A stretch of DNA of 64,000 nucleotides from NCBI GenBank assembly GCA_016183325.1, contig JACPEV010000008.1:472-64471 (forward strand), read 5' to 3'. This document shows, in pieces, positions 12,756 through 55,821 of this stretch (within the stretch, counting starts at the first letter, position 1; each line of letters starts with the position of its first letter). The position numbers and the translations under genes were made by a program. Under the pieces are notes generated by a model that saw nothing but the letters and a program-made list of their open reading frames with translations, was not told where the DNA came from and did no database searches. Origin of the DNA: Candidatus Curtissbacteria bacterium (GTDB taxonomy: Bacteria > Patescibacteriota > Microgenomatia > Curtissbacterales > GWA2-41-24).

Positions 12756-12816
12756 AATTTATTTAATCCCATTAAAAGGTACAGATTTGCTTTGTCCGAA
12801 ATTTAAAATCTTTGAT

Positions 12817-33152: not shown

Positions 33153-33157
33153 AAGTT

Positions 33158-33268
33158 TGTATCTTCCCCTTACGGGCTTGGATGTGGCACCTTCTTTGAC
33201 TTTTTGAGACAAAGGGTTGCCAGACGGATCATTGGGCCAAGTCCCATACCGTCATTCTCGATACTTTG
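33158..33268 (-). ncRNA. SAM-I (S-box) riboswitch aptamer controlling metK
   Basis: The minus strand reads UAUCGAGAAUGACGG…GGGACUUGGCCCAAUGAUCCGUCUGGCAACC…AAGGUGCCACAUCCAAGC…GGGGAAGAUA. This matches the S-box core elements (GGGA-CUGGCCC-AUGA-CCC-GCAACC, AAGGUGC-AA-UCC, closing P1 UAUC/GAUA). The terminator follows. Confidence 0.7.
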
Positions 33269-34956
33269 CAAATATTAAAGTTCTAACTATTAATTATCCT
33301 ACAACAGTACCTCAATTTGTTGCAAGTATCTAAAAAAGGTAACTGTTCACCGTTACTGACACAACGCATATTGTTCGAGGCTGGAAGCCGAGAACTAAAC
33401 TTCTCGCTCACGCTCGAAGAGTAATAACGTGTCAGCGATTGTGAACTCTTACTAAAAAAAGAAAGACGTCTAATCAGCTGAGCGATGAATTTTTATGTTC
33501 AATCGGGATAGAAATTTAGCCGTGGAAATAATGAACATAATATTTATTCATAGATAAATATTATCTTTCTTGTTTCACGGCCTCTAAAAAGCTTGCCGGC
33601 AGTTAAATCTGAGAGATTTTTTGCAAGATTTTTTGCTAATAATGTCTAATGCCACGGCACTTCTTATTAGATCGCAAGGGGTAAGAATGCAAATCGAAAT
33701 AATAGGGGGGTTAATTTTAAAGAAGAGGTTAGAATTAGTAATTCTCTTTGACCTAGTGGCTTGTTTTTCTTAATATTTGCCGTAAAGGTTTACGCTAATG
33801 TGCATACTGGGACATGTTTGGCAGACACACTTGATGCTACTTGGATTTTGGACCCAGACAATTACACTTCAGAAGGAACACATGTAATACGCAATTTACG
33901 ACGGTTTTTATGGTAATGAACCTAACGTTCTTAATGCAGGTGATGCCAGTTTAGGAGCTGGTGAAGTAGCGCTAGGTTCTGGGGCAGGGCAAATAGAACC
34001 TGGGCAGTTCTCGGGACCCCATTTGCCCTTCGGGGATTGAGCAGTATAGGAAGTTTCACGAGAGGTGCAATACCAAATAACTGCGGCTTAGGGCAATAAA
34101 TAGCAAAGTCGACTAAAAAATTATTAATTTTTTGTAATTATCTTGAAGATCAAATAGGAGACGCCATATTTGGCGCTTTATGGTTTTGAGTGCTAAAGGC
34201 ATATTAAAATGAGTTGAGACCGTAATAACAGGCTTAATCATCTATAAATCTAATAAGGAACAAGTCTGGATGTAACAGAGAGTTGTTTTTATAGAAAACA
34301 GCAATTTAAATCTTTTAAAACAAACATCTACGCACAGGGCGGGGCTTAAATCCAATCTAATACTATTTTTTGATAATTTCAAGCCCCCAAAAAGCATCTC
34401 AAAAAGTGTCCAGACTTTGTTAAATTTGTTTAAAGATAAATTATTATAAAATTGGGCACAAGGATTATAAAAAGCAAATTTTTAAGTGCAAAAATCATAG
34501 AATATTTAAACATTAGTTATTGAAAATCTTGAAGATAGATGTTTTTTTGCAAGAAAAGATAACCTTTTGGTAGGAGGTCGTCTAAAGAACATACGGTTTA
34601 TCTTTTGGGATTGTGGGGGGGACAAAGTCGCAGGGAAATAGTCAACGTTCTTAAAGGCAAATTTGATCTGAGCTGTTAAGGGGCATGAGTCATTTGTGAC
34701 AACTAGTATTCTGCCTGTTTTTTTAATCTTGTTCTTATAGGTATGATTTCATCGTAGGTTTTGGTAAATTTTGCTCTTTTGTGAATTTTATCGAATTTAT
34801 GGAAGATTTTCTCGAATTCTAGCAATTATAGTTAAATATTTTTTATTAACAGTATTTAAGCAATTTTTGAACTTGATTCGCCATTTTCGTGAAAATTTAT
34901 GTATTTTCACTCGTTGCTTGTCAATAAGCACATCTTTGGTATGGAACAATTTTGAA

Positions 34957-35202
34957 TTAATGGCGTTTTAGCAGAGTTTTAAGGTTTAACCTTGGTGTAG
35001 CAAAAACAAATAGGTAGAGAATTTCTAGAATACCGAGAGAGTTGACTACAAGCAAGGCTACAAACCAATATTTTTGTCTGGCGGTTGCGGCATACCACAT
35101 GGCAATACCTTTTATTGAAAGCGCCCAAATAGTTAAAAGAATTATTAAAAGGGCATTAGCGGGATCTTTTGGAAGATTGAAATAGTTTGAGAAGAAGCTC
35201 AT
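34957..35202 (-). CDS. small two-TM membrane protein downstream of ftsI
   Basis: 81 aa with the conserved-looking motif WALSIKGIAMWYAA…KYWF. Family not recognised. Confidence 0.4.
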   Translation of the reverse strand: MSFFSNYFNLPKDPANALLIILLTIWALSIKGIAMWYAATARQKYWFVALLVVNSLGILEILYLFVFATPRLNLKTLLKRH

Positions 35203-35244
35203 TGATGACCATAATAGATCTTATAACTAGGATTTTGCAACAGA

Positions 35245-40878: not shown

Positions 40879-41487
40879 TTACAGCCTTTCCATTTCTCTA
40901 TTTGCTTGTTCCGGACTAATGCTAGCAATCTGTTGGCTTTCTTTTGTCACGTAAAGGGTATCAGAATCATCGAGAAATTTGAGTTGAGATCTTTCGTATT
41001 TTCCCAGGCCAAGGTATTTGGCAATATCTCCTTCTCGTTGTTTAAATTCTTGGTCTTCAATTCTCAATTCCGGAACGTATGAATTGTTTGTAGGATCAAA
41101 ATATTCTACTTTTAATAATCTGACACAAGCCCCAACGCCGGTTTCATCCTGGGATACGATTAGCGACTGGCAAATCTGCCGCATCGGAGGATTCCAAAAA
41201 TCGCCAGGCTTCATATCGTTCATTGCTCTATACCTGAAACCTACCCTATTTTTTTCAAAAGCTTCAGCTTCGGAAATCCTCACCCGCCTATTGATTCCAA
41301 TAAGAGAGATTACTATTCTGCCATCTTTTGAAAGCTCTTCAGTTAATTTTATGACATTATTTTGGAATAATTGTGACGTTCTTGATTCAGGTGATTTGTC
41401 TTCTGGTCTTTCAGCCATTTTTTCATCCTCTTCCATTCCCGCTGATAAGTTGTCGTCTTGCTTCTCTAATGATATAAGAAAATGCAT
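40879..41487 (-). CDS. hypothetical protein ending in the shared C-terminal tail (ISPEQANREMERL); island gene 6
   Basis: The annotated start overlaps the helicase by 64 nt. Likelier starts are MEEDEK at 41436 or MAERPE at 41418, the latter 5 nt after the helicase stop and preceded by GGAAGAGGA. Confidence 0.5.
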   Translation of the reverse strand: MHFLISLEKQDDNLSAGMEEDEKMAERPEDKSPESRTSQLFQNNVIKLTEELSKDGRIVISLIGINRRVRISEAEAFEKNRVGFRYRAMNDMKPGDFWNPPMRQICQSLIVSQDETGVGACVRLLKVEYFDPTNNSYVPELRIEDQEFKQREGDIAKYLGLGKYERSQLKFLDDSDTLYVTKESQQIASISPEQANREMERL

Positions 41488-44400
41488 TCAACCTATCTTT
41501 GGGCATTCTATCGGTAACTGATAAATCTTGCAAAATCCGAATGCAGAATTCTTCTGCTTGAGGCCAATCCCATCCTGTGATTCTCGAAATTGGTCGGATT
41601 AAGTTTGTCCTGTAATCTCTGAAGTCTTGTATGGAAACTCCTCGTAAGAAATCTAAAATTGAGTTTTCCCTTTTAATAAGGGGTTCACCAGTCAAGATAA
41701 GTTCAACATCTTTATCAGTATCCACACTACGAATCTCTATTTCCGGCTTCTGTGTAGTTGTGACGTTTGGATTATATATTTCAAAGTGATCAAGCTCTAA
41801 ACGGAGCTGTGGCGACGGATAATCTGTTCCAGGACTCTTCCTCACTCTGCGGTTTGCCTTGGGACCTATGCTTAACCAGGCGCGTGAATCAGTAAGTAAT
41901 TCCAAGTCAGACAGGGTTAGACCTTTTAAGTCTACTTCTCCAACTTTTTGCGCCAAAATCGACCATCCAAGGCTTTTCTTGGTGCCGAGCTTACTAATTC
42001 CAATTGCACGCCCGCTATATTCTTGGTCAACCTTAAAACCAAAATGTTCTTCAAGAGCTGCTGTAAATTTTCTGAACTTGTCATCGTCTAAAACTCTTTC
42101 CGGTAAAGTTAGGGAGAAATAACCACTATTTTTAAGGACTCGGTTGCTTTCCCTTAGTATCTTCGTTCTTTCGGAATCTTCTGCCTTCACAGAACCTTTA
42201 TTTGAAAGTGAGGAATAATGTAGAACAAAAGCATTATCCAAAAAGTCATACGTATCATCCCGAGACTCTAGCTCATCGGCTCTTCCGAATTTTGCAGTAC
42301 CACCAAATATTCTTGCTTTTTCCCATCCTACTTGCAAAATATATGGATTAATGTCGACGTTATCAATACCCCTTTTTAGCTTTCTTTGCAGAAGAAGGGT
42401 CCCTGCGCCAACGCTCAAAATTTGACTTTCCTCTTCTGATTTAGTTTTAATCAGATGGCTTACGAAGTCAGCATTATATCCTGTTATATGATACTCATCT
42501 CTTCCTTCATCATAAAATTTAACCGCGATTCTTTGCGGATCTATCTCGTTTGTATGAAACATTTCAAGCGTCCTCTCTGCCCCCGCACCTGTCATGTTAT
42601 GGAAAGCTGTTGAGAGATATAATGAATCTTTGCTTCTAATTTCAATCCTATTCCCAAGTCTTTTAGAATCAAAAAATTCTTGTTGATCTGGATGTAAAAC
42701 AATTCCGGAAAGTGCCATTCTTGAAAGTAGATATGAGTAAACAACTGCTTCACCTTTACCTTGATCAACCATATCTTTAACTTCCAAAACCAGATTTTCG
42801 ACAGGGACAAGTTGTCCTTGTCTTTGCGATCTTCCTACCATCTGTTTTAACTGTTGAAAATGCCAGGGGGGTCCTAAGAAAATTTTTCTTACACCTACAA
42901 TCTCCCTGTCTTGTTCGTCCTTCAGGGCGTTTAATGTGTAATCCCTACTTTGATAGGTGGCTTCAAGCGTGACCAACATAAGCGCAGAACTTGGATTATT
43001 GACCCATCGAGAAATGACAGCTTCCCGCGGCCTTCCCACCCCGATTGTTCCATCTATCATTAATATGTCTTCAGGTGAACATAGACCGCTTACCCAAGAT
43101 TTTAGGAGAGTCATCAACTTAAAATCATTTATCGTATCCAATTCGTAACTTGTATATAAATTTGTTACTGACCCATCCTCTTGATTTATTGCTCGCTGCA
43201 AGACATCACCAGTTCGCCCTTGTCTACGTGAAGGAGAAATAATAAATACTTTGTCTCTAACTATTCTTCCATCTTCTGACTGCCTCCATGTCAACGAATC
43301 CGTGACGAGTCGTTTTAACGTTTTATATTTGGTTGATAACTTCCGACTCATCCAAAATTTTCTTAATTCAGCCAGGTCGGCATCAGAAGAATCTTTGGTA
43401 AGTTCTTCTACTAATGTATCCACTCCATTTTCTAAAAGCTCACTAAAGAAACAGGATAGTACTAAATCTCCCATTCCAATTTCGACTAGTCGATCTGCGC
43501 TTAAAAAATCTTCAGATTTTTGTGGAGAATCTACTCCCTTGAACTCTTTCCATTTGGGAACTATGAGTTTTAATATATTCAAAGTTTCGTCAATATCCAT
43601 TTCCTGAATTTTATCTTTTGCCATTCTTCGAATCTCCACTTTAGTGAGAAGTGGGTTCAGCAATGCATCTTCCAATAACCTAATCTTATTAAGAGGATTT
43701 GTTTGTATGTTGTCTTCAATGAATTGATGCAAATATTCTTCAAAGGGAGATGCTTGAATACTAAAAGGTGTGTATCTGAATTCTTGTACTCCGGTGGCCT
43801 GTTCCCACCTAAACATTCTTTTTTCTCCAATTAATGACATGTATACCAGGTCAGGGCGATTTAAATGGGCATCGCTAAAGGTTTTTCTTCTTGCAGTCGA
43901 AAATTCATGAACAGGAACATATTCAGATGGATATAGAATTGACATAGGCACATTTAAGTTGGCAAGTTTACTTCTGATTGGAGTGGCAGTAAGTCCCAGG
44001 ATCGGCGCATCTTCGTTTCCGGTTCTTTCTTGATAATTTTGACGTATTTTGCCGATTAAATGGAGTAATGCCTTAGAAGAAATTGCATCGTAATTATTGA
44101 AGTTATCAATCTCGTCAATTATTGAAGCGTCTACTTTTGCTGATTTAATTAGGGTTTCCTCAAGCAAAGGAAGCAAATTTGAATCACTTTGCGTGTCTTC
44201 CAGTAATTCTTGGCTAATAACTATATATTTCTTGCCTGAGTTTGCCGCATTTTTCAGCTCACCAGATCCTTTGACAATGTAAACTTGATCCGGATTGGTA
44301 AACGCAACATTTGATTCAATTTCCCATGTTTCTTTCCCTGCTGCTGTTGCAAAAACCAACACTCTTGCAGCATCCGAGTTTTCCATAGCTAGGTAAGCAG

Positions 44401-45394
44401 CGCTAGTTTTTCCAAGTCCCGTATCAGCTGCCAAAAGCCTTGTATTATGCCTTACAAAGTCGTAACAAAATGTTCTCTGTTCAAATGAGGGGAATGGCCT
44501 GGTTTGGTCTTTGACTTGAATTTGGGATTTAAATTCTCCTTTCAGCGGGAAAGTGGCTATATCATAAAATCGTTCGTGAATTTTTTCCAAAAATTGTTTT
44601 TTATCGGGATCTGTGCATTGCTTGATCACCTCTTCAAATTGTTTCATTCCCTCTTGAAGCCCGGCGTCCGTAATACTTCTTGAAAGGCTTTGTTCCAAAT
44701 AATTTTGAACTAAGTTGTATTTAATTGCATATATATTTCTAAAAATTTTCTTGGGGACTCTGTCTATCATGTCAACGATATCCATGTCTCTTTGAGGCAT
44801 AGTTCCAGTAAGAAGTCCAATATAAGGTCTGATAAGAGCAGTGGTTACCCAGGCACGGAGTTCTTCAATTTTTTTGGCATCCGTGACATTCTCGAATAAT
44901 TCCAATGTCATGATTTGACCTACTACCTCTAGAGGCCAACCGGCATCGACAAGCTCTTTGACATTAATATTCTCTGCCAACTTTGTTTCTACGACCTTTT
45001 GCGCTTCTTCATCCTCATGAGTCCCTCGCTTTATATGTCCTTTTTCTACTAGTAAAAGCTGCAAGTCTTCATACAATTCTTTGCCATGTGCTTTAATTTC
45101 TGCTTCTGCTTGCAGGCGTTCCTCATCAGATTTGAGTTGAATTACCATATCATCTCGAGGGATAAAATTCCTGAGAAGGAAAAGGGGGTCTTTTTGTTGC
45201 GCGTATATTCCACCTTCAATAAGCTTTTTCGCATAGTAAAATTTATGTCTAAGACGTGTTGAAGATGCGTAATTAGCTTCAAAAGTGCTACTTCCTTGCC
45301 AGTTTAGAACCCGATCTTCAAAATCGGGTGGTAGGATTATTTCTCCTTGTGGAGCCTCGTTCAGTCTCTCAATCATTAGGACTGATTTTATCAA
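41423..45394 (-). CDS. large SF2 helicase fused to a class I SAM-dependent methyltransferase-like domain (N-terminal ~320-aa unknown domain, C-terminal ~250-aa unknown domain)
   Basis: Helicase motifs I ADTGLGKTS, III LTATP and VI QMVGRSQRQGQ. MTase motifs I ILSVGAGTLLL, II DDTYDFLDNAFVLH and the RVLKNSGYFSL block. The annotated start is TTG; the ATG at 45376 (MIERLNEAPQG) is likelier. Confidence 0.7.
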   Translation of the reverse strand: MIKSVLMIERLNEAPQGEIILPPDFEDRVLNWQGSSTFEANYASSTRLRHKFYYAKKLIEGGIYAQQKDPLFLLRNFIPRDDMVIQLKSDEERLQAEAEIKAHGKELYEDLQLLLVEKGHIKRGTHEDEEAQKVVETKLAENINVKELVDAGWPLEVVGQIMTLELFENVTDAKKIEELRAWVTTALIRPYIGLLTGTMPQRDMDIVDMIDRVPKKIFRNIYAIKYNLVQNYLEQSLSRSITDAGLQEGMKQFEEVIKQCTDPDKKQFLEKIHERFYDIATFPLKGEFKSQIQVKDQTRPFPSFEQRTFCYDFVRHNTRLLAADTGLGKTSAAYLAMENSDAARVLVFATAAGKETWEIESNVAFTNPDQVYIVKGSGELKNAANSGKKYIVISQELLEDTQSDSNLLPLLEETLIKSAKVDASIIDEIDNFNNYDAISSKALLHLIGKIRQNYQERTGNEDAPILGLTATPIRSKLANLNVPMSILYPSEYVPVHEFSTARRKTFSDAHLNRPDLVYMSLIGEKRMFRWEQATGVQEFRYTPFSIQASPFEEYLHQFIEDNIQTNPLNKIRLLEDALLNPLLTKVEIRRMAKDKIQEMDIDETLNILKLIVPKWKEFKGVDSPQKSEDFLSADRLVEIGMGDLVLSCFFSELLENGVDTLVEELTKDSSDADLAELRKFWMSRKLSTKYKTLKRLVTDSLTWRQSEDGRIVRDKVFIISPSRRQGRTGDVLQRAINQEDGSVTNLYTSYELDTINDFKLMTLLKSWVSGLCSPEDILMIDGTIGVGRPREAVISRWVNNPSSALMLVTLEATYQSRDYTLNALKDEQDREIVGVRKIFLGPPWHFQQLKQMVGRSQRQGQLVPVENLVLEVKDMVDQGKGEAVVYSYLLSRMALSGIVLHPDQQEFFDSKRLGNRIEIRSKDSLYLSTAFHNMTGAGAERTLEMFHTNEIDPQRIAVKFYDEGRDEYHITGYNADFVSHLIKTKSEEESQILSVGAGTLLLQRKLKRGIDNVDINPYILQVGWEKARIFGGTAKFGRADELESRDDTYDFLDNAFVLHYSSLSNKGSVKAEDSERTKILRESNRVLKNSGYFSLTLPERVLDDDKFRKFTAALEEHFGFKVDQEYSGRAIGISKLGTKKSLGWSILAQKVGEVDLKGLTLSDLELLTDSRAWLSIGPKANRRVRKSPGTDYPSPQLRLELDHFEIYNPNVTTTQKPEIEIRSVDTDKDVELILTGEPLIKRENSILDFLRGVSIQDFRDYRTNLIRPISRITGWDWPQAEEFCIRILQDLSVTDRMPKDRLNAFSYIIREARRQLISGNGRG

Positions 45395-45413
45395 ATTTAG
45401 CCTATAGTTTCAA
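45385..45413 (-). promoter_or_regulatory. promoter P2 for the helicase gene: TTGAAA-N17-TAAAAT, 8 nt before the ATG (near-leaderless)
   Basis: Minus strand reads TTGAAActataggctaaatttgaTAAAATcagtcctaATG. It is almost identical to P1 at 50852-50880. The shared upstream motif CTAACAAGTGCCTTA is at 45498-45512. Confidence 0.5.
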
Positions 45414-45529
45414 ATCTGAAAAGTGATGTCTGCTCTTCTGTTTGCAAAATCTCAAATTAATTTTACGGTCCATGCTGATCCTTTGCATGATATTTACCTA
45501 ACAAGTGCCTTAGAGAGCATTATTGATTT

Positions 45530-47524
45530 TCATGCCTCTAAAAGCTTTACTAGTTGTTCGTTTGCCTCATCAGGAGAAATTGGTTGTGCTTTATCTCGAT
45601 TATTTTGTTTTTCTATTATTTCAACTATTAGTTGAATCAGCTCAGGAGCGTAGTGCTCAATAGGATGTCCTCCCTGATCGAGGTAAATCTCAAACCATTC
45701 TTGATGATCTTTCCTAAATTCTTTCGCTATCTGATCAATTACTCTTGAATTTTTTTTACGTAAATGATCCATTATGCCTCCTCTTGTCATCCAACCTTCC
45801 GGTGCTCGGCCATATCGTGTGAGCTCTTTGATAATTAACTCTTTCAATTCTGGTGAGTAATGCTCACGAATTCTGCCGTTTGAATCTACATAAAACTGAT
45901 GCCACTCGGGATGATTTTCTTTAAATTTATCGGCTCTATTACCCACAATTAAAGTGCTTCTCTTAATTTCTTTTGCTAAAGCTTCTTTTGTTATCCAGCC
46001 ATCTGGTTGATTTTTAAAGTTTGCGACATGCTCGATAATTAATGCAACGAATTCTGGTGAGTAATAATTATTGGGATGACCAGTCCGACTCAGAAATGTT
46101 TTGAACCAATCCAGATGCTCTTTTTTATATTTTTCTGCTAACCTTTCAACAAATTTCGGCGATTTTTCAACCAGTTCTGCTAAGCGCGCATTTGGGACCC
46201 ATCCTTCAGGAACAATATCGTATTTTGTAAGTTCATTTGTTAAGAAGGATACGAATTCGGGTGAATAATGATCCCGAAGAAACCCATTTCTAGCAACATA
46301 ATTTTTGGCCGATTCCGGATGTTGATCTCCAATTTGTTTAATTAATCTTTCAATAGGCCTCCTGGTTTTTCCTAATCGTTTTGCCAATTCTGTAATCGTT
46401 ATCCACCCTTCAGGTGCTTCGGTACCACCCTTTAATTCTTCTTCGGAAAATTCTATACCCAAAGGACTAAATGCAGATTTGAGGATCTCAAGCCGTAAGT
46501 TTTCGAATGATGGGTGCTCGCGACGAGGATTTCCAAACATTCTGCTGAAGTTCTTTTTTGATCTAACTTTTTCCCTAACGAATTGCTTTGCTTCTTCAAT
46601 TCTTCCTGTAATGACTGTCCCGTCTTTATCTAAGAAGGTTTCTATAAAATCTGGAAATTCTTGCAAAAATATCTCTCTTACGGCTTCAAAAATTTCTTCT
46701 CTATCTCTAGTATGCCAAATCCTCGGGTGAGCAAAATCGCTGTTATTAAATTGTACTCCCCAGGGTTTAAATGCTTTTTTAATAGCAGTTATGTAGCTTC
46801 CCTGGAAATAAGGTACTGCACCTTTTTGAACGGGTGTTCCACCAATAATTTGCGCAAATTTAATCTGATTTCCAATTTTCTCTTTAATAAATTCTTTCGC
46901 CGTTTCTTGGAAATTACTTTTTATTTGTCCATCATCATCTCTTGGAAATAAATCATTAAATTCAGGAAAGTTTTCAAGAAATAATCCTTGAATGTTGCCA
47001 ATGCCTATTTGTTCATTCTCTTCGGTGGTTTTGTCTGGAAATTTCCAGCGAACTTGTCCTATTGCATCTTTTAAAATTATTGGCCTATTTTTATCGCCAT
47101 TTGGTGAAGTATCTTTTGCAATTTCATTTCCTGGTAGCTCAATTCCCCAAGGAGCGAAGGATTTTTTAAAAACAACTAGGTAAGAGCCTTCAAAATATGG
47201 GCAAGATCTCTTATCACAAGCAACTCCAAAAGACATATAAAATTGTCTATTTTTGAAGACGTGGCTAAGTATAAATTCTCTTGCTTGTTCTACCCTGTTA
47301 CCATCAACTTTACCATCCTGATCTCTAAGAAATTGTAAATTAAAATCTGGAAACTTTTCTAGAAAAAGCGCTTGCACATTTCTAATGCCCAGCCGCTCAT
47401 TTTCCTCCAAGGTGTTGCCAGGTAGATGCCAACGTATTCGGCCTCCTCTATCCCTAAGAACTGTTGGCTTAGATATAGGAGAATATTCTGATAGTGACTG
47501 AGGATTTTCTTCTTCTTTTATCAT
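45530..47524 (-). CDS. repeat-rich protein with shared C-terminal tail (…PISPDEANEQLVKLLEA); island gene 4
   Basis: 664 aa. Two N-terminal copies of a ~110-aa 'RDRGGRIRWxLPGN…FLExFPxFN' domain plus a degenerate third. Then four tandem ~68-aa 'PEGW-T…LA…R…HxEW…HYSPE' repeats that look HTH-like. Confidence 0.55.
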   Translation of the reverse strand: MIKEEENPQSLSEYSPISKPTVLRDRGGRIRWHLPGNTLEENERLGIRNVQALFLEKFPDFNLQFLRDQDGKVDGNRVEQAREFILSHVFKNRQFYMSFGVACDKRSCPYFEGSYLVVFKKSFAPWGIELPGNEIAKDTSPNGDKNRPIILKDAIGQVRWKFPDKTTEENEQIGIGNIQGLFLENFPEFNDLFPRDDDGQIKSNFQETAKEFIKEKIGNQIKFAQIIGGTPVQKGAVPYFQGSYITAIKKAFKPWGVQFNNSDFAHPRIWHTRDREEIFEAVREIFLQEFPDFIETFLDKDGTVITGRIEEAKQFVREKVRSKKNFSRMFGNPRREHPSFENLRLEILKSAFSPLGIEFSEEELKGGTEAPEGWITITELAKRLGKTRRPIERLIKQIGDQHPESAKNYVARNGFLRDHYSPEFVSFLTNELTKYDIVPEGWVPNARLAELVEKSPKFVERLAEKYKKEHLDWFKTFLSRTGHPNNYYSPEFVALIIEHVANFKNQPDGWITKEALAKEIKRSTLIVGNRADKFKENHPEWHQFYVDSNGRIREHYSPELKELIIKELTRYGRAPEGWMTRGGIMDHLRKKNSRVIDQIAKEFRKDHQEWFEIYLDQGGHPIEHYAPELIQLIVEIIEKQNNRDKAQPISPDEANEQLVKLLEA

Positions 47525-48871
47525 TCATTCCTCTAAAAACCTTCTTAATTGTTCGTTGGCTTCGTCGGGGGAGATTGAATCCTTTTCTATCTTTTCTTTT
47601 GGTGAATAGTTGCCCCCTTTGAGCGCGTCCATTATATCTTCTTGATTGTAAAGCTCAACAACTTTACCAGAAATGTCGCGACCGGTAATAACATTAATAT
47701 TTCTTCCACGAAGGTGGCGACGCATAGTTGCTGTTTGAAGCCCAAATGATTTTCGAAAATAAAATTGGGGCACCCATGTTTGATTGTTTTCATCGGTGTA
47801 GAGTCCCGTCACCTTATCCACTCGGGGTAAGTTTAAAAATTCGCTGATCTTTTCTGAAGCTTTCGATTCGTCGAAAAGGACTACTTCCGCACCAACCCTA
47901 CTTCTACCTTGTATCTGGGGGACATCAACAAGTAATGATGATAACGAAGTTCCACTAACCTGGAATCTGCTTCGAAGCACTCTTCTAGATACCCAACTGG
48001 AAGTACTGTTTTCTGTATACGAGCCTGTTTCGTTATTTACCCTAGGTAGCAGCAAAAAATTATTTATTTGACTTGTCACTTCGGGCACATTGTAGAGAAT
48101 GGTTTCGTGGCCAACCCCATCTCTGCCAGCTATAGATCGAACTCCTTGCATGAACTTTGATAGTTTTTCAGCACTAAGACCGTGATTAACTTTAAAGTAA
48201 TTAGCAGGGGCCCAACATTCTCCGTCTTCGTTTTGATATTGACCGATTGAACTATCAACTTGCGGGAGCGCAAAAAATTCGTTAATTCTTCTTGAAACTT
48301 CAGCTTCATTGTAGAGTCTAATTTCATGACCTTTAAGACCTACTCCTGCTCTTGATGGAACGCCGATCAAACGTTTAGACAAAGTTGGTCCGTTGATTTT
48401 AAAATTCTTTCTAAAAAAATAGGAGGAGGCCCAATTATTACCGTTTGCGTCCGTCCAGCGAGTTTCCTTATCAACCTTCGGTAAAGAAAGGTCGAGTCCC
48501 CAAGGATTGAAAGATTTTTCTAAAACGAAGTGATATGATCCTTGAAAATACGGGACTGTATTTTTCGAAAAAGGGGATTCTCCTGTTAGAGCAACAAACT
48601 CTTGTCTTTTACCTATTCTATCTAATATAAATTCTTCTGCTTGACCTCTTTTATCCTCTATAATTTTTTCATCTTCGCCCTTGGGGAAAAGTTCATTAAA
48701 CTCTGGATATCTTTCTAAGAAGATTGCTCGAATGTTTTTTATTCCAAGCATTAAGTTCTCTTCTTCAGAGTTGCCTGGAAGCGACCAGCGAATTCTGCCT
48801 CCTTTATCACGAAGAATTGACGGTACTTGGATTTCTTGATTTTGTGTTAGTAATGTTTCTTTTGCCATCAA
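47525..48871 (-). CDS. repeat-rich protein with shared C-terminal tail (…SISPDEANEQLRRFLEE); island gene 3
   Basis: 448 aa. One RDKGGRIRWSLPGN domain, then four ~70-aa 'W…YF-K-F…LS-L…GR-GVG-E…LYNE-EV…I-EFL-LPRV…TG-YT' repeats. The true start ATG overlaps the upstream stop (TGATG). Confidence 0.55.
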   Translation of the reverse strand: MMAKETLLTQNQEIQVPSILRDKGGRIRWSLPGNSEEENLMLGIKNIRAIFLERYPEFNELFPKGEDEKIIEDKRGQAEEFILDRIGKRQEFVALTGESPFSKNTVPYFQGSYHFVLEKSFNPWGLDLSLPKVDKETRWTDANGNNWASSYFFRKNFKINGPTLSKRLIGVPSRAGVGLKGHEIRLYNEAEVSRRINEFFALPQVDSSIGQYQNEDGECWAPANYFKVNHGLSAEKLSKFMQGVRSIAGRDGVGHETILYNVPEVTSQINNFLLLPRVNNETGSYTENSTSSWVSRRVLRSRFQVSGTSLSSLLVDVPQIQGRSRVGAEVVLFDESKASEKISEFLNLPRVDKVTGLYTDENNQTWVPQFYFRKSFGLQTATMRRHLRGRNINVITGRDISGKVVELYNQEDIMDALKGGNYSPKEKIEKDSISPDEANEQLRRFLEE

Positions 48872-49728
48872 TTCTCCAAAAGTCTTTTTAGCTGTTCGTT
48901 AGCTTCGTCGGGGGAAATAGTTGATTCTGCAGGTCTGTAAAGTCTTGTGTCTCCTTTGTGAAATATCCTGCGATCGATTAATTTTTGTTCTCCTTCTTGA
49001 TTAACTAAGAAAATTTCTAAAAATGTATTGCTTTTTTCATCGACTTTTGGTTGAAAAGCTAGCTCTTTTCCGTAAGACGTTCGTATTTCTTTATTATTTA
49101 ATACGACGGCTTTACCTCTAACCATTCCTATATGAAAGCTGTCTGTTCGAGTGAAATTCCACGTCCAAAATTCTTTCAGCATGTGTGGTTCTATCTCTTT
49201 TCTTCCACCGAGGTAATCTAAAAAAATCTGTCTTTCAAAACCATGCCAACTTTCTACTTTTAGGTTTTGAGCGTCAATCCTAAACGATTGAATTAGTTCA
49301 TTAAAATCTACTACATCCCTTAATCCTAATTCGTGGAAATCAATCCATTGATATAATTTATTTTCGTCTTCTCTAGGAAAAGCTAAGATTATTCCGCTGT
49401 TGCGGATAATTTTTTGCGATAATGGATTGAGGCTAAAGATTACTGTCCTTCCTTGAATTCTGCCACCTATGTAAAATCTTGTTCCGACTTTATTATCACC
49501 TCTGGCTTCTTCTATCAAAAACGGTGGAATTTCTTCAAAAGGAAATCTTCCTCTGAGAAAAGCGTGCAGAAAAGCTACGCCCTCCTCCTGGTCTACTGCG
49601 TATATGGGTGAAGGTTTCCATGGATCTGGCTCTACTTGCGAAGGATCAGACCTGTCTCCCAATTCCAAATCTATTATTTTAATGAATCGTTTACTATTGG
49701 GACTTTTTGGTTGCATCTCTGGATTCAT
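48868..49728 (-). CDS. hypothetical protein with shared C-terminal tail (…TISPDEANEQLKRLLEN); island gene 2
   Basis: 286 aa. The upstream gene's final GAGGAA (Glu-Glu) codons form the SD, and its TAA stop overlaps this ATG (TAATG). Confidence 0.5.
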   Translation of the reverse strand: MNPEMQPKSPNSKRFIKIIDLELGDRSDPSQVEPDPWKPSPIYAVDQEEGVAFLHAFLRGRFPFEEIPPFLIEEARGDNKVGTRFYIGGRIQGRTVIFSLNPLSQKIIRNSGIILAFPREDENKLYQWIDFHELGLRDVVDFNELIQSFRIDAQNLKVESWHGFERQIFLDYLGGRKEIEPHMLKEFWTWNFTRTDSFHIGMVRGKAVVLNNKEIRTSYGKELAFQPKVDEKSNTFLEIFLVNQEGEQKLIDRRIFHKGDTRLYRPAESTISPDEANEQLKRLLEN

Positions 49729-50843
49729 TATTCCTCCAAAAGTCTTCTTAACTGTTCATTGGCTTCGTCAGGGGAAATGATTACATCTACCGAATTTTTA
49801 TTTGTGTCACTAAGACCTAGCTTTGCTCTCAAAGCTCTAATACGACCTGGATAAGCTCGAATTGCACCCCATAGGTCATACCTGTTTTTTGCTTGCAATG
49901 CATTTCTTGTAAGTAATCCTTCCTGCTGGAAGAATTCCCAAGCCTCTTTTTCTATTACTTCTGAAGTCCAATATCCTTTCTTCCTTATTAGTCTAATATC
50001 AAGCCCTAGATCTCTTTTTAAGCCTGTCATTTTCCCAGGATAAAATTTACCAATAGCTGTTCTAAGATCGCCCCTTCCTTGCCTAGCTAATAAATTTGTT
50101 GTTAAATGTTCCTCTTCTCCTAAAAAAGCTAAAGCTGCTTTTCGGATTTCTTCTGGGGTCCAGTAATGATATGGCTTTGCAGATGGTCCTAAACCTAAAT
50201 CTTGTTTTAACTGCCTTATTCCACCTGGATAATGTCGTAGGATAGCATTAAGTAAGTCATTTCTATGGCCCTCGAAAAGCAATCGGGCGCTAATTTTTCC
50301 TTCTTGATCTAGAAACCCTTTGGACTCCTCGAAGATCATTTCCTTTGTCCAATAATTTCCAGGTTTTTTAATTATCTTAAGACCAAGATTTCTTCTGAGC
50401 CCCACCATTCCATCTGGATAATATTTAGCTACTGCAGCGACAAAGCTTGATAAGCCAGCTTTTACCAATGTTCGTTGTTTTAAGTCTGAGCCTTCTGTAT
50501 CCAATCTACGACCCTCGTGTTCTATATTGGTTAGCTCCCGCCAGAATCCGGATGGTCTTGATGATGAAGGTACGCCAAGATTCACTTTTAAACCTGAAAA
50601 ACCTCCAGGATAGTAATGAACAATACCATAAAGCAGATCAAACTTTCCTGCACGGCTCAAGTTAACTCTTGTAAGATCATTTCCTTGTTGAATAAATCCA
50701 GTTGCTTCTGCAAGAACAACCGCGCCTAATAATCCTTGATCTTCTAATAACCTCCAACGGATCCTACCTCTATCATCTCGCGGTATGTCAATAGATTGGA
50801 AATCTTCCTCGGTCTTAGTAGCAAAAACAGTTCTTTCAGCCAT
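49728..50843 (-). CDS. repeat-rich protein with shared C-terminal tail (…IISPDEANEQLRRLLEE); island gene 1
   Basis: 371 aa. N-terminal RDDRGRIRW motif, then about five ~68-aa 'L…AI…YPGG…L…LGL…YWT-EEI…F…EG-L' repeats. Confidence 0.55.
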   Translation of the reverse strand: MAERTVFATKTEEDFQSIDIPRDDRGRIRWRLLEDQGLLGAVVLAEATGFIQQGNDLTRVNLSRAGKFDLLYGIVHYYPGGFSGLKVNLGVPSSSRPSGFWRELTNIEHEGRRLDTEGSDLKQRTLVKAGLSSFVAAVAKYYPDGMVGLRRNLGLKIIKKPGNYWTKEMIFEESKGFLDQEGKISARLLFEGHRNDLLNAILRHYPGGIRQLKQDLGLGPSAKPYHYWTPEEIRKAALAFLGEEEHLTTNLLARQGRGDLRTAIGKFYPGKMTGLKRDLGLDIRLIRKKGYWTSEVIEKEAWEFFQQEGLLTRNALQAKNRYDLWGAIRAYPGRIRALRAKLGLSDTNKNSVDVIISPDEANEQLRRLLEE

Positions 50844-50851
50844 GATGAGGA

Positions 50852-50880
50852 ATTTTACAATATTTGGCCTATAGTTTCAA
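50852..50880 (-). promoter_or_regulatory. promoter P1 for the island operon: TTGAAA-N17-TAAAAT, 8 nt before the ATG
   Basis: Minus strand reads TTGAAActataggccaaatattgTAAAATtcctcatcATG. The shared upstream motif CTAACAAGTGGCTTA is at 50947-50961. Confidence 0.5.
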
Positions 50881-50973
50881 GTGGGCCCATGATATTATTA
50901 CTGCCTGTAGTTTATTAAACGAGTATATTACTCGCTTGATAGTTATCTAACAAGTGGCTTACTGAGTAGGCGG

Positions 50974-51180: not shown

Positions 51181-51372
51181 ATGGGAATCATTGATCTAAG
51201 AAGAGTCTTGAAAAATCGTCGTTCCGGGTGGATCTCTATTTCGAAAGACTACAAAAGGGTTATTGCCAAAGACCAAACCTTAGGGGGTCTTGTCAAAAAA
51301 CTGCAAAGGCTTGGCAATCCCGAAGGATATCTTGTCAAGGCAGCGAACGATTATTCCAGATATGTGGGCTGA
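51181..51372 (+). CDS. small partner protein of the retropepsin cassette, copy 2 (divergent)
   Basis: 63 aa (…[19 protein letters not shown]…). It occupies the 3' part of the ORF-track frame 50995-51372. Its stop overlaps the next ATG (TGATG). Confidence 0.4.
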
Positions 51373-51899
51373 TGAAACCTGTTATTTTGCAGCCACCAAT
51401 AAAGATCTGGTATAAAACGCTTCCCGGATTTTCAAAAATCATTTGGCCAATACTTGATATCAAATTGTCTATAAATAGTTTCGTTCTTCCTCAACCTATC
51501 TTTTCGCTTGTAGATTCCGGTGCGAGTATTTCTATAATCCATCCACAGATAGCCGAGATATTAGGATTTGACCGAGAAAGATTAGGCAAATCGCGATCGT
51601 CAGGAAAATCAGCCAGCGGTGATTATAAATCTTGGATTTTACCGAATCTTGTTGAAGTAAATATTTATGGCCATTTGTTTAATTTTAGGTTCGAAGTATT
51701 AGATAATCCAAATCTTATGTGGCCATGTATTTTGGGAGAAGATTCAATCTTTCAAGTTGCCAAGGTTGATTTTTCAAAATTCAGAGGTTATTTTGAATTG
51801 AGGATTAGACTAAAAGAAGATAAATCTAGGAGTTTGGCCGAACTTGCTAAAAACACGTACGGTGCATGGAAAGAACCGGTTAGGAAAATTTCTTCATAA
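51372..51899 (+). CDS. retropepsin-like (clan AA) aspartic protease, cassette 2
   Basis: FSLVDSGASISIIHPQIAEILGFD. Start MKPVIL is coupled to the upstream stop. The ORF-track N-terminus (51228-) is probably not translated. Confidence 0.55.
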   Translation: MKPVILQPPIKIWYKTLPGFSKIIWPILDIKLSINSFVLPQPIFSLVDSGASISIIHPQIAEILGFDRERLGKSRSSGKSASGDYKSWILPNLVEVNIYGHLFNFRFEVLDNPNLMWPCILGEDSIFQVAKVDFSKFRGYFELRIRLKEDKSRSLAELAKNTYGAWKEPVRKISS

Positions 51900-55146: not shown

Positions 55147-55821
55147 TTATTCTAGGGTGAGATGTTTGATTATGTTAAGTTTTTGCTGATAGCCGGCTTG
55201 ATCATAAACGAATTTTCTGTAATCTTGAATGGATTTAAAGTAATTTAAAATTACCTGCGTGTTTACAAAGCTTTGAACATTTCCTTCATTTAAATAACTT
55301 CTAAATGACGACCACGGATAGTTATCTAAATCCCCTATTCTGATAATAAAAGCAGACACGGGATTCAAGTGAATATATCTTGAGACATGTAATAATTGTT
55401 CATCATTTTCAATTCTCACTGCTTTGAACATAGATTGAAATAGTGAGCCAGTTCTTTCATTTTTAGTATTAAAGTATTTCGAGCAACTATGCTGAAAGTT
55501 TGTCATAAAATTGGAAATTGATTTTTCCTCTAAAGCTTTTAACAAGAAATGTACATGGTTTGGCATAATACAAAAAGCAATAATTTCTAAGAAAGGTTTA
55601 TAACTTCGTGCTAAATTTTCTAAAAAAACAGCCCTTTGAGCTGCTGGTAATTGTTTATACTTGGAAAACTTTAATGGCGGTTTTGGGTATCGATAAAAAC
55701 TGATAACCTCAAGAGCTCGCTGATAATCCTTTTGGCTTAGAAAAATTGGCTGTTTGGCAATACTTCTGTTAAAAACATGATAAACTTCTCCAGGAACTAA
55801 AGGTATTTTGCGATAAGGCAT
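55147..55821 (-). CDS. IS200/IS605-like Y1 (HUH) transposase of the REP-associated tyrosine transposase (RAYT) type
   Basis: YHVFNRS N-terminus, HUH motif MPNHVHFLL, C-terminal SRYIHLNPV with a candidate catalytic Tyr. 224 aa. Flanked by REP-like inverted repeats. Confidence 0.7.
   Translation of the reverse strand: MPYRKIPLVPGEVYHVFNRSIAKQPIFLSQKDYQRALEVISFYRYPKPPLKFSKYKQLPAAQRAVFLENLARSYKPFLEIIAFCIMPNHVHFLLKALEEKSISNFMTNFQHSCSKYFNTKNERTGSLFQSMFKAVRIENDEQLLHVSRYIHLNPVSAFIIRIGDLDNYPWSSFRSYLNEGNVQSFVNTQVILNYFKSIQDYRKFVYDQAGYQQKLNIIKHLTLE

What the first reader, a model, noticed from the sequence alone, without database searches (positions are those of the whole stretch)
41423..45394. Unusual 1,300-aa architecture: unknown N-domain + SF2 helicase + class I SAM-MTase-like domain + unknown C-domain
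The helicase motifs are ADTGLGKTS, LTATP and QMVGRSQRQGQ. They are followed by a Rossmann MTase-like block with ILSVGAGTLLL, DDTYDFLDNAFVLH and RVLKNSGYFSL. That block lacks the (D/N)PP(Y/F/W) motif of DNA amino-MTases, so its substrate class is open: small molecule, RNA, protein, or an inactive binding module. Helicase-MTase fusions are hallmarks of Type ISP/IIG restriction and some defence systems. This protein has no recognisable nuclease or TRD by eye. It sits in an integrated island with DNA-binding-looking repeat proteins, so a defence or island-maintenance role is plausible but unproven.
Basis: partly seen in the sequence, partly recalled or inferred. Interest (0 to 1): 0.7.

Follow-up and report, generated by a model that had tools for sequence, protein, structure and literature searches.

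The report
Translocase-methylase hub with docked partners
The large gene is real. It encodes the central enzyme of an undescribed multi-protein system of tiny "candidate phyla radiation" (CPR) bacteria: a DNA-tracking motor fused to a methyl-transferring enzyme, which seems to collect DNA-binding helper proteins and a DNA-repair-like protein through a shared tail peptide.

Summary
Window 41423-45394 on the minus strand is one intact gene. Its real start is the ATG at 45376, giving 1317 aa, and all six quoted motifs are present.

- **Helicase part:** it is an SNF2-family double-strand DNA translocase.
- **Methyltransferase part:** it is a class I SAM enzyme closest in fold to Rrp8/nucleomethylin. 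It has no DPPY or PCQ motif.
- **No nuclease** was found.

- In about 18 distinct related loci, every operon partner I could read ends in the same C-terminal amphipathic helix. Here it reads "ISPDEANEQLRRLLEE". One truncated contig shows no partner.
- The upstream partners number 1-6 (four here). They are mosaic proteins built from HTH-like repeats.
- The downstream partner is about 180 aa and is probably a methylpurine-DNA-glycosylase (MPG/AAG) homologue (HHalign 85.5%).
- Tails vary between loci but match within a locus.
- In several relatives the adaptor modules are fused to the hub's N-terminus, and the tail is then absent.

**Best model, inferred:** adaptors recruit a translocating methylase to DNA, and a tethered MPG-like subunit reads or excises the methylated purine.

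"Integrated island" is not supported. The operon is co-directional with the cell-division (dcw)/peptidoglycan cluster, an association seen in 8 of 13 scored loci. No described system matches.

The parts
50937..50961 (-). Conserved upstream element, copy 1: TAAGCCACTTGTTAGATAACTATCA. Possible operator.
   Evidence: There are only two copies in the 64-kb window, where chance expects 0. Both lie about 60-75 nt upstream of the two system promoters.
50852..50880 (-). Promoter-like site P1: TTGAAA, 17 nt, TAAAAT. It ends 8 nt before the ATG of the first adaptor gene, so the mRNA appears leaderless.
   Evidence: The sequence is near-identical to P2.
49728..50843 (-). Adaptor 1 (371 aa). It has the N-module 'PRDDRGRIRW', then about five 65-aa 'YWT..E.I..EA...YPGG...L...LGL' repeats (HNH_repeat-like), then the tail ISPDEANEQLRRLLEE (49731-49775).
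   Evidence: PF18780 matched one adaptor of the set at E 3e-4. Homologous adaptors occur in L011 and L024.
48868..49728 (-). Adaptor 2 (286 aa). It is a short relative of the roughly 600-aa 'module X' adaptors and carries the tail ISPDEANEQLKRLLEN.
   Evidence: Module-X proteins occur only on contigs that carry a hub.
47525..48871 (-). Adaptor 3 (448 aa). It has the N-module 'LRDKGGRIRWSLPG', four repeats of about 65 aa, and the tail ISPDEANEQLRRFLEE.
   Evidence: Its repeats are fused to a hub in P0115 (E 3e-21).
45530..47524 (-). Adaptor 4 (664 aa). It has two N-modules, five winged-HTH-like repeats ('PEGW.T...LA..L......HPEW') and the tail ISPDEANEQLVKLLEA.
   Evidence: Weak HTH_29 match (E 1.7e-5). 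Its repeats are fused to a hub in P0115 (E 5e-42).
45488..45512 (-). Conserved upstream element, copy 2: TAAGGCACTTGTTAGGTAAATATCA.
45385..45413 (-). Promoter-like site P2, in front of the hub gene. The listed TTG start at 45394 lies inside it.
41423..45376 (-). Hub gene (1317 aa from the ATG at 45376): SNF2 translocase fused to a class I SAM methyltransferase.
44495..45376 (-). Hub residues 7-300. Residues 7-140 are a variable N-terminal stretch. Residues 141-300 are a conserved all-helical domain.
   Evidence: Conservation profile. AF2 secondary structure. phrog_62 covers residues 164-480 (E 2e-21).
43955..44494 (-). SNF2 lobe 1 (residues 301-480). Motifs: Q motif PSFEQ, Walker A GLGKT, DEID, LTATPIRSKLANL.
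43259..43954 (-). Helical insertion between the two ATPase lobes (residues 481-712).
42695..43258 (-). SNF2 lobe 2 (residues 713-900), with PPWHFQQLKQMVGRSQRQGQ.
41915..42694 (-). Helical linker (residues 901-985) and the Rrp8/nucleomethylin-like class I MTase domain (986-1160). Motif I is SVGAGT; the post-I motif is NVDIN.
41426..41914 (-). Hub C-terminal region (residues 1161-1323): disordered linkers and a confident four-helix bundle. It is a candidate receptor for the tails.
   Evidence: Its function is inferred only.
40879..41418 (-). Small subunit (179 aa from the ATG at 41418; starts 4 nt after the hub stop codon). It is MPG/AAG-like, with I-S-E50-A-E52-A-F54 aligned to the glycosylase motif IVETEAY. 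Its tail is ISPEQANREMERL.

Best explanation
The ORF encodes the catalytic hub of a multi-subunit system restricted to CPR bacteria.

**Shown:**
- The hub is an SNF2-type ATPase with an intact active site, fused to a class I methyltransferase competent to bind SAM. That methyltransferase is not of the DNA N6A/N4C/C5 types.
- It is always encoded with 1-6 mosaic proteins made of HTH-like repeats and with a roughly 180-aa protein.
- All of these partners, and only they, end in a short amphipathic helix that co-varies within each locus.
- In relatives the adaptor modules are fused to the hub's N-terminus, and the helix is then absent.

**Probable:** the small protein is a methylpurine-DNA-glycosylase (MPG/AAG) homologue. 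It keeps the catalytic Glu and the base-stacking aromatic residue.

**Inferred:**
- The tail is a docking peptide that tethers interchangeable DNA-recognition adaptors and the MPG-like subunit to the hub.
- The adaptors place the hub on particular DNA, and the SNF2 motor tracks along the duplex.
- The methylase writes a methylpurine, plausibly on a ring nitrogen as its nearest structural relative Rrp8 does.
- The tethered MPG-like subunit then flips out and recognises or excises that base, which gives abasic sites or erases the mark.

The biological role is either restriction-like attack on foreign DNA or marking of the cell's own chromosome. I lean slightly towards a conflict or defence role.
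For: - **Tails:** the motif is found at the extreme C-terminus of the five operon partners and of no other ORF of at least 80 aa that my script listed in the window. It is found in the partners at the related loci.
- **Co-variation:** adaptor tails are 0.70 identical within a locus and 0.40 between loci. The small subunit's tail matches its own locus better than permuted loci (8 of 20000 permutations).
- **Fusions:** P0115 residues 7-766 match window adaptors 4 and 3 (E 5e-42 and 3e-21). P0077, P0078 and P0056 are similar cases. Five of the six fused proteins checked contain no tail motif, and the one match lies near a C-terminus rather than at the junction.
- **MPG-like subunit:** HHalign probability rose from 28% to 49% to 85.5% (P 5.7e-6, 164 collinear columns) as both profiles were enriched. 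One hundred reversed or shuffled controls scored at most 21.7, against 42.4. The catalytic-Glu column is E or D in 20 of 32 sequences, and the Tyr127-equivalent column is aromatic in 32 of 32.
- **Module exclusivity:** the adaptors and the small protein occur only on hub contigs.
Against: - No direct evidence shows that the tail binds the hub. The tails could instead bundle with each other, or bind a partner that is not in the operon.
- The MTase substrate is unknown. Apart from Rrp8, its closest structures are small-molecule, RNA or protein enzymes.
- DNA binding by the adaptors rests on weak HTH and HNH_repeat hits.
- The MPG homology is profile-profile only. Pfam gave E 0.055 in 2 of 26 members, and HMM searches against PDB sequences found nothing. 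The catalytic Glu is Gln in 5 of 32 members and another residue in 7.
- No PADLOC system matches.
- Many loci sit inside cell-division or peptidoglycan clusters rather than defence islands.
Confidence: 0.5

Rival explanations
1. Self-directed, cell-cycle-coupled chromosome module. The complex marks or remodels the bacterium's own chromosome in step with cell division: a writer (MTase), a reader or eraser (MPG-like) and a remodeller (SNF2). The adaptors would bind chromosomal sites.
For: - Peptidoglycan or division genes lie within three genes in 8 of 13 scored loci, always in the same orientation as the operon.
- The window operon sits at the head of mraZ-rsmH-ftsL-ftsI-(SAM riboswitch)-metK-mur genes.
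- In L009 it lies between ftsI and a Mur ligase. In L024 it lies between ftsA and ftsZ.
- Other neighbours are uppS, ykuD, Peptidase_S11, murT and gatD.
- The three-part organisation persists across deep divergence of the hub.
Against: - The family is rare. The scan, which used only two short peptide patterns, found it in 4 of 185,579 reference species, and the profile search found a few hundred clusters among 1.8 billion.
- Adaptor number and module content vary strongly between close relatives. That pattern is typical of conflict systems.
- Some loci lie next to integrase, KilA-N or AbiEii genes.
- The loci are not phylogenetically independent, so the enrichment statistic is soft.
Confidence: 0.2
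2. Counter-defence or mobile-element cargo of the DarB kind. A translocating methylase would protect an element's DNA from host restriction, and the tails would be packaging or delivery signals.
For: - The N-terminal helical domain plus lobe 1 match phrog_62 'DNA helicase' at E 2e-21.
- SWI2/SNF2-methylase dyads are described as a pervasive theme of phage and conjugative-element polyvalent proteins, with DarB as the archetype (PMC5512222).
- L001 lies near an integrase and a KilA-N gene.
Against: - tblastn found no hit in 50,697 phage records or 72,556 plasmid records.
- No structural, conjugation or integration genes flank most loci, and the window locus lies among housekeeping genes.
- The MTase is not the adenine-N6 type of the DarB dyad.
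- A glycosylase-like partner does not fit a protective methylase.
Confidence: 0.1
3. Protein methyltransferase working on a CheR-like logic. The C-terminal peptide would dock the partner proteins as substrates, and the hub would methylate them to regulate their DNA binding.
For: - The CheR methyltransferase is tethered to chemoreceptors through a C-terminal pentapeptide (established knowledge, not tested here).
- The MTase belongs to the broad Methyltransf_11-like group, which includes protein methylases.
- The tails are conserved and rich in acidic and amide residues.
Against: - It does not explain the SNF2 motor or the MPG-like fold of one 'substrate'.
- Adaptor modules fused in cis to the hub lack the tail. 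That fits a tether better than a methyl-acceptor site.
- The near-invariant tail position alternates between Asn and Asp.
Confidence: 0.08
4. RNA or ribosome-directed enzyme. An Rrp8-like rRNA m1A methylase would be fused to an RNA helicase and act as a CPR-specific ribosome-biogenesis factor.
For: - The nearest structure is the rRNA m1A methylase Rrp8/nucleomethylin, and Bud23 (rRNA m7G) is also among the top hits.
- rsmH is a neighbour in two loci.
Against: - The ATPase is SNF2-type, and SNF2 enzymes track on double-strand DNA. DEAD-box helicases appear only at lower Z (13.5 or below).
- No housekeeping family matches in Pfam or NCBIfam.
- The distribution is rare and patchy.
- The partners look like DNA-binding repeats and a DNA glycosylase.
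Confidence: 0.07

Closest known systems
SWI2/SNF2 ATPase-DNA methylase dyad of phage and conjugative-element polyvalent proteins (DarB of phage P1; PMC5512222)
   Same: An SNF2-type translocase and a methyltransferase sit in one polypeptide. The N-terminal helical domain and lobe 1 match the phage family phrog_62 (E 2e-21). The translocating-methylase logic is the same.
   Different: - The domain order appears reversed: as I recall, the DarB methylase is N-terminal, and here the MTase is C-terminal.
- The MTase is Rrp8/Methyltransf_11-like, not the adenine-N6 type with a DPPY motif.
- I did not see or test for the LPD36 domain.
- It is chromosomal in CPR bacteria, with no phage or plasmid homologues.
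- It has docking-tail partners and an MPG-like subunit.
Type I and Type ISP restriction-modification enzymes (HsdR/M/S; LlaGI-like)
   Same: An SF2 translocase, an MTase and separate or fused target-recognition parts act together. Specificity subunits are exchangeable. The domain order ATPase-MTase-C-terminal domain resembles Type ISP.
   Different: - There is no PD-(D/E)xK, Mrr or HNH nuclease.
- The MTase lacks the NPPY motif.
- The adaptors are HTH-repeat proteins tethered by a C-terminal helix, not HsdS-type TRDs.
- The putative effector is glycosylase-like.
- PADLOC and Pfam give no R-M family hit.
Methylpurine DNA glycosylase family (human AAG/MPG, bacterial 'DNA-3-methyladenine glycosylase', PF02245): comparison for the small subunit
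   Same: Motifs match in the same order over 164 columns. These include FF..D...LA..L.G, the IVETEAY-like catalytic segment, GACV(R)L aligned to AVLIRA, and GDIAKYLGL aligned to GPGRLCQALGI.
   Different: - Identity is about 14-18%, below Pfam's threshold.
- It carries a docking tail.
- The catalytic Glu is not universal (E or D in 20 of 32).
- It is always encoded next to an SNF2-MTase rather than as a stand-alone repair gene.
Rrp8/nucleomethylin (25S/28S rRNA m1A methyltransferase): comparison for the MTase domain
   Different: Identity is 16%, and there is no Pfam Methyltransf_8 hit. Here the domain is fused to a DNA translocase. The substrate was not tested.
DNMT5 (fungal SNF2-coupled cytosine-5 maintenance methylase) and the plant trio DDM1 / MET1 / ROS1
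   Different: DNMT5 has a C5-MTase with PCQ and ENV motifs, which are absent here. It is eukaryotic and works in chromatin. The components are unrelated in sequence apart from the SNF2 core.

Membership tests
SWI2/SNF2 ATPases | Two RecA-like lobes with SNF2-specific helical insertions; overall fold closest to SNF2 enzymes | tested here: met
SWI2/SNF2 ATPases | Conserved helicase motifs with SNF2 signatures (GxGKT, DExx, TGTP-x-x-N/S-x-L-x-EL block, WNP...Q..R..R.GQ block) | tested here: met
   GLGKT, DEID, LTATPIRSxLxDL and PPWxxQQLKQMxGRSxRQGQ are invariant or nearly so in 29 homologues.
SWI2/SNF2 ATPases | Pfam SNF2-rel_dom (PF00176) at or above the gathering score | tested here: inconclusive
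   The window protein gets only DEAD at 21.9 bits (cut-off 26) and ResIII at 18.1 (cut-off 22.5). Family members P0086, P0109, P0110 and P0115 score 30-73 bits against a cut-off of 24.9.
Class I SAM-dependent methyltransferases (Methyltransf_11-like) | Seven-strand Rossmann fold, glycine-rich motif I, acidic residue after strand 2 | tested here: met
Rrp8/nucleomethylin family (PF05148) | Sequence membership in the family profile | tested here: not met
   No PF05148 hit at E <= 0.1. It is only the nearest structural neighbour. I therefore describe the domain as Rrp8-like and do not file it as a member.
DNA amino-methyltransferases (N6A/N4C) | Motif IV (D/N/S)PP(Y/F/W) after strand 4 of the MTase domain | tested here: not met
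   The regular expression matches only 'SPPW' in SNF2 lobe 2. No match falls in the MTase domain in any of 29 sequences.
DNA cytosine-5 methyltransferases | Catalytic PCQ motif and ENV motif | tested here: not met
   PCQ occurs in 0 of 29 sequences. ENV occurs only at scattered, non-homologous positions.
Type ISP / IIG restriction enzymes | An N-terminal nuclease (Mrr/PD-(D/E)xK) in the same polypeptide | tested here: not met
   No nuclease family appears in Pfam, NCBIfam or PADLOC. The modelled part of the N-terminal region (residues 140-300) is all-helical. The conserved charged residues form no D...(D/E)xK pattern.
Known anti-phage defence systems (PADLOC-DB v2) | A match of the hub or its partners to a system's models | tested here: not met
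   The only hits are weak partial ones: mad2 at E 0.0022 on the MTase, and mad1 and Csa3 at E >= 0.01 on one adaptor.
DarB-like SNF2-adenine methylase-LPD36 module | SNF2 module of the phage/polyvalent clade | tested here: inconclusive
   phrog_62 matches at E 2e-21 over residues 164-480. I could not verify which phage proteins make up phrog_62. tblastn against phages gives only weak lobe-1 hits.
DarB-like SNF2-adenine methylase-LPD36 module | N6-adenine DNA methylase partner domain; carried on a phage or conjugative element | tested here: not met
   The MTase is of a different class. There are no phage or plasmid homologues.
MPG/AAG methylpurine DNA glycosylases (PF02245): small subunit 40879-41418 | Sequence-profile homology over the whole domain | tested here: inconclusive
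   HHalign gives 85.5%, P 5.7e-6, 164 columns, with shuffled controls at 21.7 or below against 42.4. Pfam gives only E 0.055 in 2 of 26 members, and HMM searches against PDB sequences found nothing.
MPG/AAG methylpurine DNA glycosylases (PF02245): small subunit 40879-41418 | Catalytic Glu and base-stacking Tyr of the IVETEAY motif | tested here: met
   In the window protein, I-S-E50-A-E52-A-F54 aligns to I-V-E-T-E-A-Y. Across the family the Glu column is E18/D2/Q5/other 7, and the aromatic column is W12/F11/Y9, out of 32.
MPG/AAG methylpurine DNA glycosylases (PF02245): small subunit 40879-41418 | MPG fold; glycosylase activity on alkylpurines | not testable with these tools
Activity needs biochemistry.

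The most novel reading that the evidence does not exclude
An enzymatic 'alkylate-and-excise' DNA-targeting machine. Plug-in adaptor proteins dock through a shared C-terminal helix onto an SNF2 translocase. Its non-canonical methylase deliberately writes N-methylpurines into selected DNA. A co-tethered MPG-like glycosylase converts these into abasic sites. This would be a restriction or genome-editing principle that needs no nuclease. In the members with Gln at the catalytic position, it would instead be a bacterial writer / reader / remodeller epigenetic module wired into the cell-division gene cluster.
Probability: 0.25. Interest if true: 0.9.

Novelty: new variant of a known kind. Interest (0 to 1): 0.75.

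Why it matters
- **Uncharacterised partners.** SNF2-methylase pairings are known from restriction-modification, DarB-type counter-defence and eukaryotic DNMT5. This one combines a non-DNA-type methylase with a probable methylpurine glycosylase and a variable set of repeat-built adaptors. None of these components carries a functional name in the databases I searched.
- **A plug-and-play assembly principle.** The shared docking helix varies between loci, matches within a locus, and is lost when adaptors are fused to the hub. It can be tested directly with peptides.
- **Enzymatically written alkylpurines.** If the methylase writes ring-N methylpurines into DNA for a tethered glycosylase, these bases would be a deliberate signal or weapon rather than damage.
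- **CPR biology.** The system is confined to CPR bacteria, whose biology is largely unknown, and it is repeatedly embedded in the cell-division/peptidoglycan cluster. It gives a concrete handle on chromosome or conflict biology in these organisms.

Tried and rejected
- **Single-sequence searches of the hub.** phmmer against PDB found nothing. A family-profile search of PDB found only weak generic MTases. NCBIfam found nothing. PADLOC gave no system. tblastn against phages and plasmids found nothing at 1e-3, and only weak lobe-1 hits to ordinary phage helicases at E <= 1.
- **Nuclease hunt in the terminal domains.** No Pfam hit, no conserved D/E/K triad, no GIY-YIG motif. Rejected.
- **'SPPW' as a DNA-MTase motif IV.** It lies in SNF2 lobe 2, not in the MTase. 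Rejected.
- **Integrated island.** No tRNA gene, no compositional jump, and I saw no integrase among the ORFs I examined. Rejected for this locus.
- **Tail as a beta-clamp-binding motif (QLxLxL/F).** The spacing does not fit, and the Tyr- and Phe-type tails lack the Gln. Considered by eye and dropped.
- **Recombination repeats.** The DNA copies of the tails are only 70-85% identical. I read this as conservation at the protein level, not as recent gene conversion or a recombination substrate.
- **MPG hint.** I first discounted it as chance (E 0.055 in 2 of 26 members; nothing against PDB; nothing in single-sequence Pfam scans). I re-opened it after aligning the motifs by eye, then tested it with real MPG sequences fetched from plasmids.
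- **AFDB50 fold search.** The library was not available.


Full report
**1.

Window 41423..45394 on the minus strand is a single ORF of 1323 codons. The listed TTG start lies inside a promoter-like element: TTGAAA, 17 nt, TAAAAT, at 45413-45385. The public protein P0001, annotated 'methyltransferase domain-containing protein [Candidatus Curtissbacteria]', is 100% identical and 1317 aa long. The true start is therefore the ATG at 45376.

A word-indexed search found 31 relatives, most of them full length, at 36-62% identity. Where they are named, they come from CPR bacteria (Curtissbacteria, Roizmanbacteria). In an alignment of 29 of them, conservation is even from residue 150 to 1200. The catalytic residues of both enzymatic parts are invariant: Q306, G326/G328/K329/T330, D427/E428, Q851/G854/R855/R858/G860, and G996/G998/D1014.

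**2. What the hub is**

Single-sequence profile hits are all below Pfam's cut-offs: DEAD 21.9 bits, Methyltransf_11 20.7 bits, ResIII 18.1 bits. I therefore modelled two pieces with AlphaFold2 on family alignments.

- The sequence carries the SNF2 signatures LTATPIRSxLxDL and PPWxxQQLKQMxGRSxRQGQ.
- More distant family members pass the Pfam SNF2-rel_dom cut-off.
- A helical insertion of about 230 residues separates the two lobes. Ino80 and Swr1 have a comparable insertion.
- There is no (D/N/S)PP(Y/F/W) motif in the MTase domain and no PCQ motif.
- The N-terminal 300 residues have no nuclease signature, and the modelled part (140-300) is helical. The C-terminus ends in a confident four-helix bundle.

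The hub is thus a double-strand DNA translocase fused to a SAM-binding methylase that is not of the classical DNA-MTase classes.

**3.

Four upstream genes run with no gap or with overlapping stop and start codons: 49728-50843, 48868-49728, 47525-48871 and 45530-47524. A downstream gene, 40879-41418, starts 4 nt after the hub stop codon. All five end in the same peptide: ISPDEANEQL(R/K/V)(R/K)(L/F)LE, or ISPEQANREMERL in the small protein. Among the 100 ORFs of at least 80 aa that my script listed in the window, the motif occurs only there, and always at the extreme C-terminus.

I collected about 18 distinct related loci. The pattern repeats in them.
- One to six or more upstream proteins, and the roughly 180-aa downstream protein, carry a tail of the form [AT][ND]x[YFQEW][LMI]xx[LFI][LVA].
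- The exceptions are one truncated contig (L007) and the fusion proteins described below.
- The flavour of the tail is specific to each locus: ANEQLxxLLE, ANxYLRxLVxGE, ADxFMExIAFG, ANEQMMKLLEE, and SEDEIQRLTREAL in the most distant subfamily.
- Adaptor tails are 0.70 identical within loci and 0.40 between loci.
- The small protein's tail matches its own locus's adaptors better than permuted ones: 0.456 against 0.328 ± 0.032, reached by 8 of 20000 permutations.
- The hub is the only operon member without the tail.

**4. The adaptors**

The adaptors are mosaics of a few modules shared across loci in different combinations and copy numbers:
- an N-module, 'RDxxGRIxW.LPG..EEN..LGIxN';
- 65-aa 'YWT..E.I..EA...YPGG...L...LGL' repeats, which are HNH_repeat-like (PF18780 at E 3e-4 in one member);
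- winged-HTH-like repeats, with weak HTH_29 and HTH_36 hits;
- a module of about 480 aa that I call X.

Module-X proteins are found only on contigs that carry a hub.

**5. Fusion evidence**

A full profile search of 1.84 billion cluster representatives found 531 relatives at E <= 1e-3, 246 at E <= 1e-10 and 63 at E <= 1e-30. So the architecture is much more widespread and divergent than the first search suggested. Distant members keep SNF2-rel_dom plus Methyltransf_11.

Several members are 1650-2260 aa long because adaptor modules are fused to the N-terminus of the hub.
- P0115 residues 7-435 match the wHTH repeats of window adaptor 45530-47524 (E 5e-42).
- P0115 residues 439-766 match the repeats of adaptor 47525-48871 (E 3e-21).
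- P0077 and P0078 carry the N-module.
- P0056 (the L008 protein, 2256 aa) matches the L003 adaptor.
- Five of the six fused proteins checked have no tail motif. The single match, in P0078, lies near its C-terminus and not at the fusion junction.

A tether that becomes dispensable once the link is covalent is what a docking peptide predicts. This is the strongest argument that the adaptors work physically with the hub. The receptor site is not identified.

**6. The small subunit**

The family of about 30 members has no Pfam or PDB hit by HMM-to-sequence methods. The only hint was Pur_DNA_glyco at E 0.055 in 2 of 26 members.

By eye, its conserved blocks line up with those of methylpurine DNA glycosylases. 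To test this I fetched nine real 'DNA-3-methyladenine glycosylase' genes from plasmids. The tblastn query for that step was a human AAG segment that I recalled from memory. It served only as bait; the sequences used in the test come from the database.

- HHalign probability rose as both profiles were enriched: 28%, 49%, then 85.5% (P 5.7e-6, score 42.4, 164 collinear columns).
- A reversed template scored 11.4. Fifty-nine column-shuffled templates scored at most 21.7, and forty block-shuffled templates at most 21.3.
- I-S-E50-A-E52-A-F54 of the window protein aligns with I-V-E-T-E-A-Y. From established knowledge of human AAG, this segment holds the catalytic Glu125 and the base-stacking Tyr127.
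- Across 32 family members the Glu column is E or D in 20, Q in 5 and another residue in 7. The aromatic column is always W, F or Y.

I rate MPG-fold homology as probable, at about 0.7-0.75, not as shown.

**7. Genomic setting**

- There is no tRNA gene, and I saw no integrase or compositional break. 'Integrated island' is not supported.
- On the minus strand the order is: adaptors, hub, small subunit, a PurF-like gene (named by eye only), mraZ, rsmH, ftsL, ftsI, a SAM riboswitch (33156-33267), metK, Mur ligases, murB, murA, ddl and mraY.
- Elsewhere the operon lies between ftsI and a Mur ligase (L009) and between ftsA and ftsZ (L024).
- It also lies next to Mur ligases (L005), murT/gatD (L010), uppS and ykuD (L026), and Peptidase_S11 and ykuD (L027 and the P0086 locus).
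- That makes 8 of the 13 loci I scored for neighbours, always co-directional with the cluster. Other loci sit near an integrase and KilA-N (L001) or AbiEii and an antitoxin (L003).
- The enrichment is suggestive, but the loci are not phylogenetically independent.

Two near-identical promoter-like sites, each preceded by a 25-nt conserved element found nowhere else in the window, stand in front of the adaptor array and in front of the hub.

**8. Mechanism**

*Shown:* the domain identities, the conserved catalytic residues, the invariant three-part operon, the shared co-varying tail, and the fusions.

*Inferred:*
- The tail docks the adaptors and the MPG-like subunit on the hub.
- The adaptors select DNA. 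The HNH_repeat and HTH modules are weak evidence for this.
- The SNF2 motor tracks on duplex DNA.
- The methylase writes a methylpurine, possibly on a ring nitrogen, because its nearest relative Rrp8 makes m1A and Bud23 (m7G) is also among the top hits.
- The MPG-like subunit reads or removes that base.

*Role:* restriction-like damage of foreign DNA is favoured by the mosaic, rapidly varying adaptors and the patchy distribution. A self-directed mark coupled to the cell cycle is favoured by the dcw linkage and the deep conservation. I cannot decide between them and give the conflict reading a slight edge.

**9. Comparison and novelty**

The nearest described things are these:
- the SWI2/SNF2-adenine-methylase dyad of phage and plasmid polyvalent proteins such as DarB (PMC5512222; phrog_62 hit);
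- Type I and Type ISP restriction-modification enzymes;
- fungal DNMT5, conceptually.

The hub fails the defining tests for each: the MTase class, the nuclease, and phage or plasmid carriage. No PADLOC system matches. Full-text searches found no description of an SNF2-methylase-glycosylase operon or of this tail. A 2026 preprint on CPR methyltransferases notes only in general terms that they are often linked to helicases.

I file the hub as a new variant of the translocase-methylase kind. The system-level organisation (docking tails, MPG-like partner, modular adaptors) has no counterpart that I could find.

Noticed in passing
window 45385-45413 and 50852-50880; 45488-45512 and 50937-50961 (minus strand): Two near-identical promoter-like sites (TTGAAACTATAGGCYAAAT...TAAAAT) each end 8 nt before an ATG, so the mRNAs appear leaderless. 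Each is preceded by the same 25-nt element. Both elements occur only at these two places in the window. This suggests common regulation of the adaptor array and of the hub plus small subunit.
   Followed up: partly
window 33156-33267 (minus) and 32018-33121 (minus): A SAM riboswitch (RF00162, 44.7 bits, just above the gathering score) lies directly upstream of metK (SAM synthetase). Both are embedded in the dcw/mur cluster, about 8 kb downstream of the SAM-using hub.
   Followed up: partly
window 27756-29843 (minus): A 695-aa protein combines an N-terminal nucleotidyl-transferase domain (NTP_transferase) with a complete Mur ligase (Mur_ligase, _M and _C domains). This is an unusual fusion within the peptidoglycan cluster.
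   Followed up: no
L024 13410-13832: A second, tail-less 140-aa paralogue of the small subunit follows the tailed one. Its motif 'EIVGTEWY' is even closer to the glycosylase motif IVETEAY. This locus lies between ftsA and ftsZ.
   Followed up: partly
L005, L007, L008 (record titles): These contigs are labelled 'uncultured Gammaproteobacteria' or 'Lysobacterales' in their records. Their GC content is 35-38%, and they carry this otherwise CPR-only operon. They are probably mis-binned or mislabelled metagenome-assembled genome (MAG) contigs.
   Followed up: no
window 51228-51899 (plus) and 55147-55821 (minus): By eye only. The 223-aa ORF divergent from the operon contains 'LVDSGAS', a retropepsin-type aspartic protease motif. 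The 224-aa ORF near recO looks like an IS200/RAYT-type HUH transposase ('HVHFLL'). Neither was checked with profiles.
   Followed up: no
window 33270-35240: About 2 kb between ftsI and the SAM riboswitch holds no ORF of 100 aa or more. GC skew there is strongly positive (+0.13). Nothing in Rfam matches at gathering score.
   Followed up: no
L027 2613-6109 (minus) and 10729-12873 (plus); P0086 locus: In the most distant subfamily the tailed partner of about 715 aa lies downstream of the small subunit. A divergent gene pair, a 905-aa protein plus a TehB-like methyltransferase, lies upstream. The tail flavour there is 'SE(D/A)E(I/L)xRLxxxAL'.
   Followed up: partly
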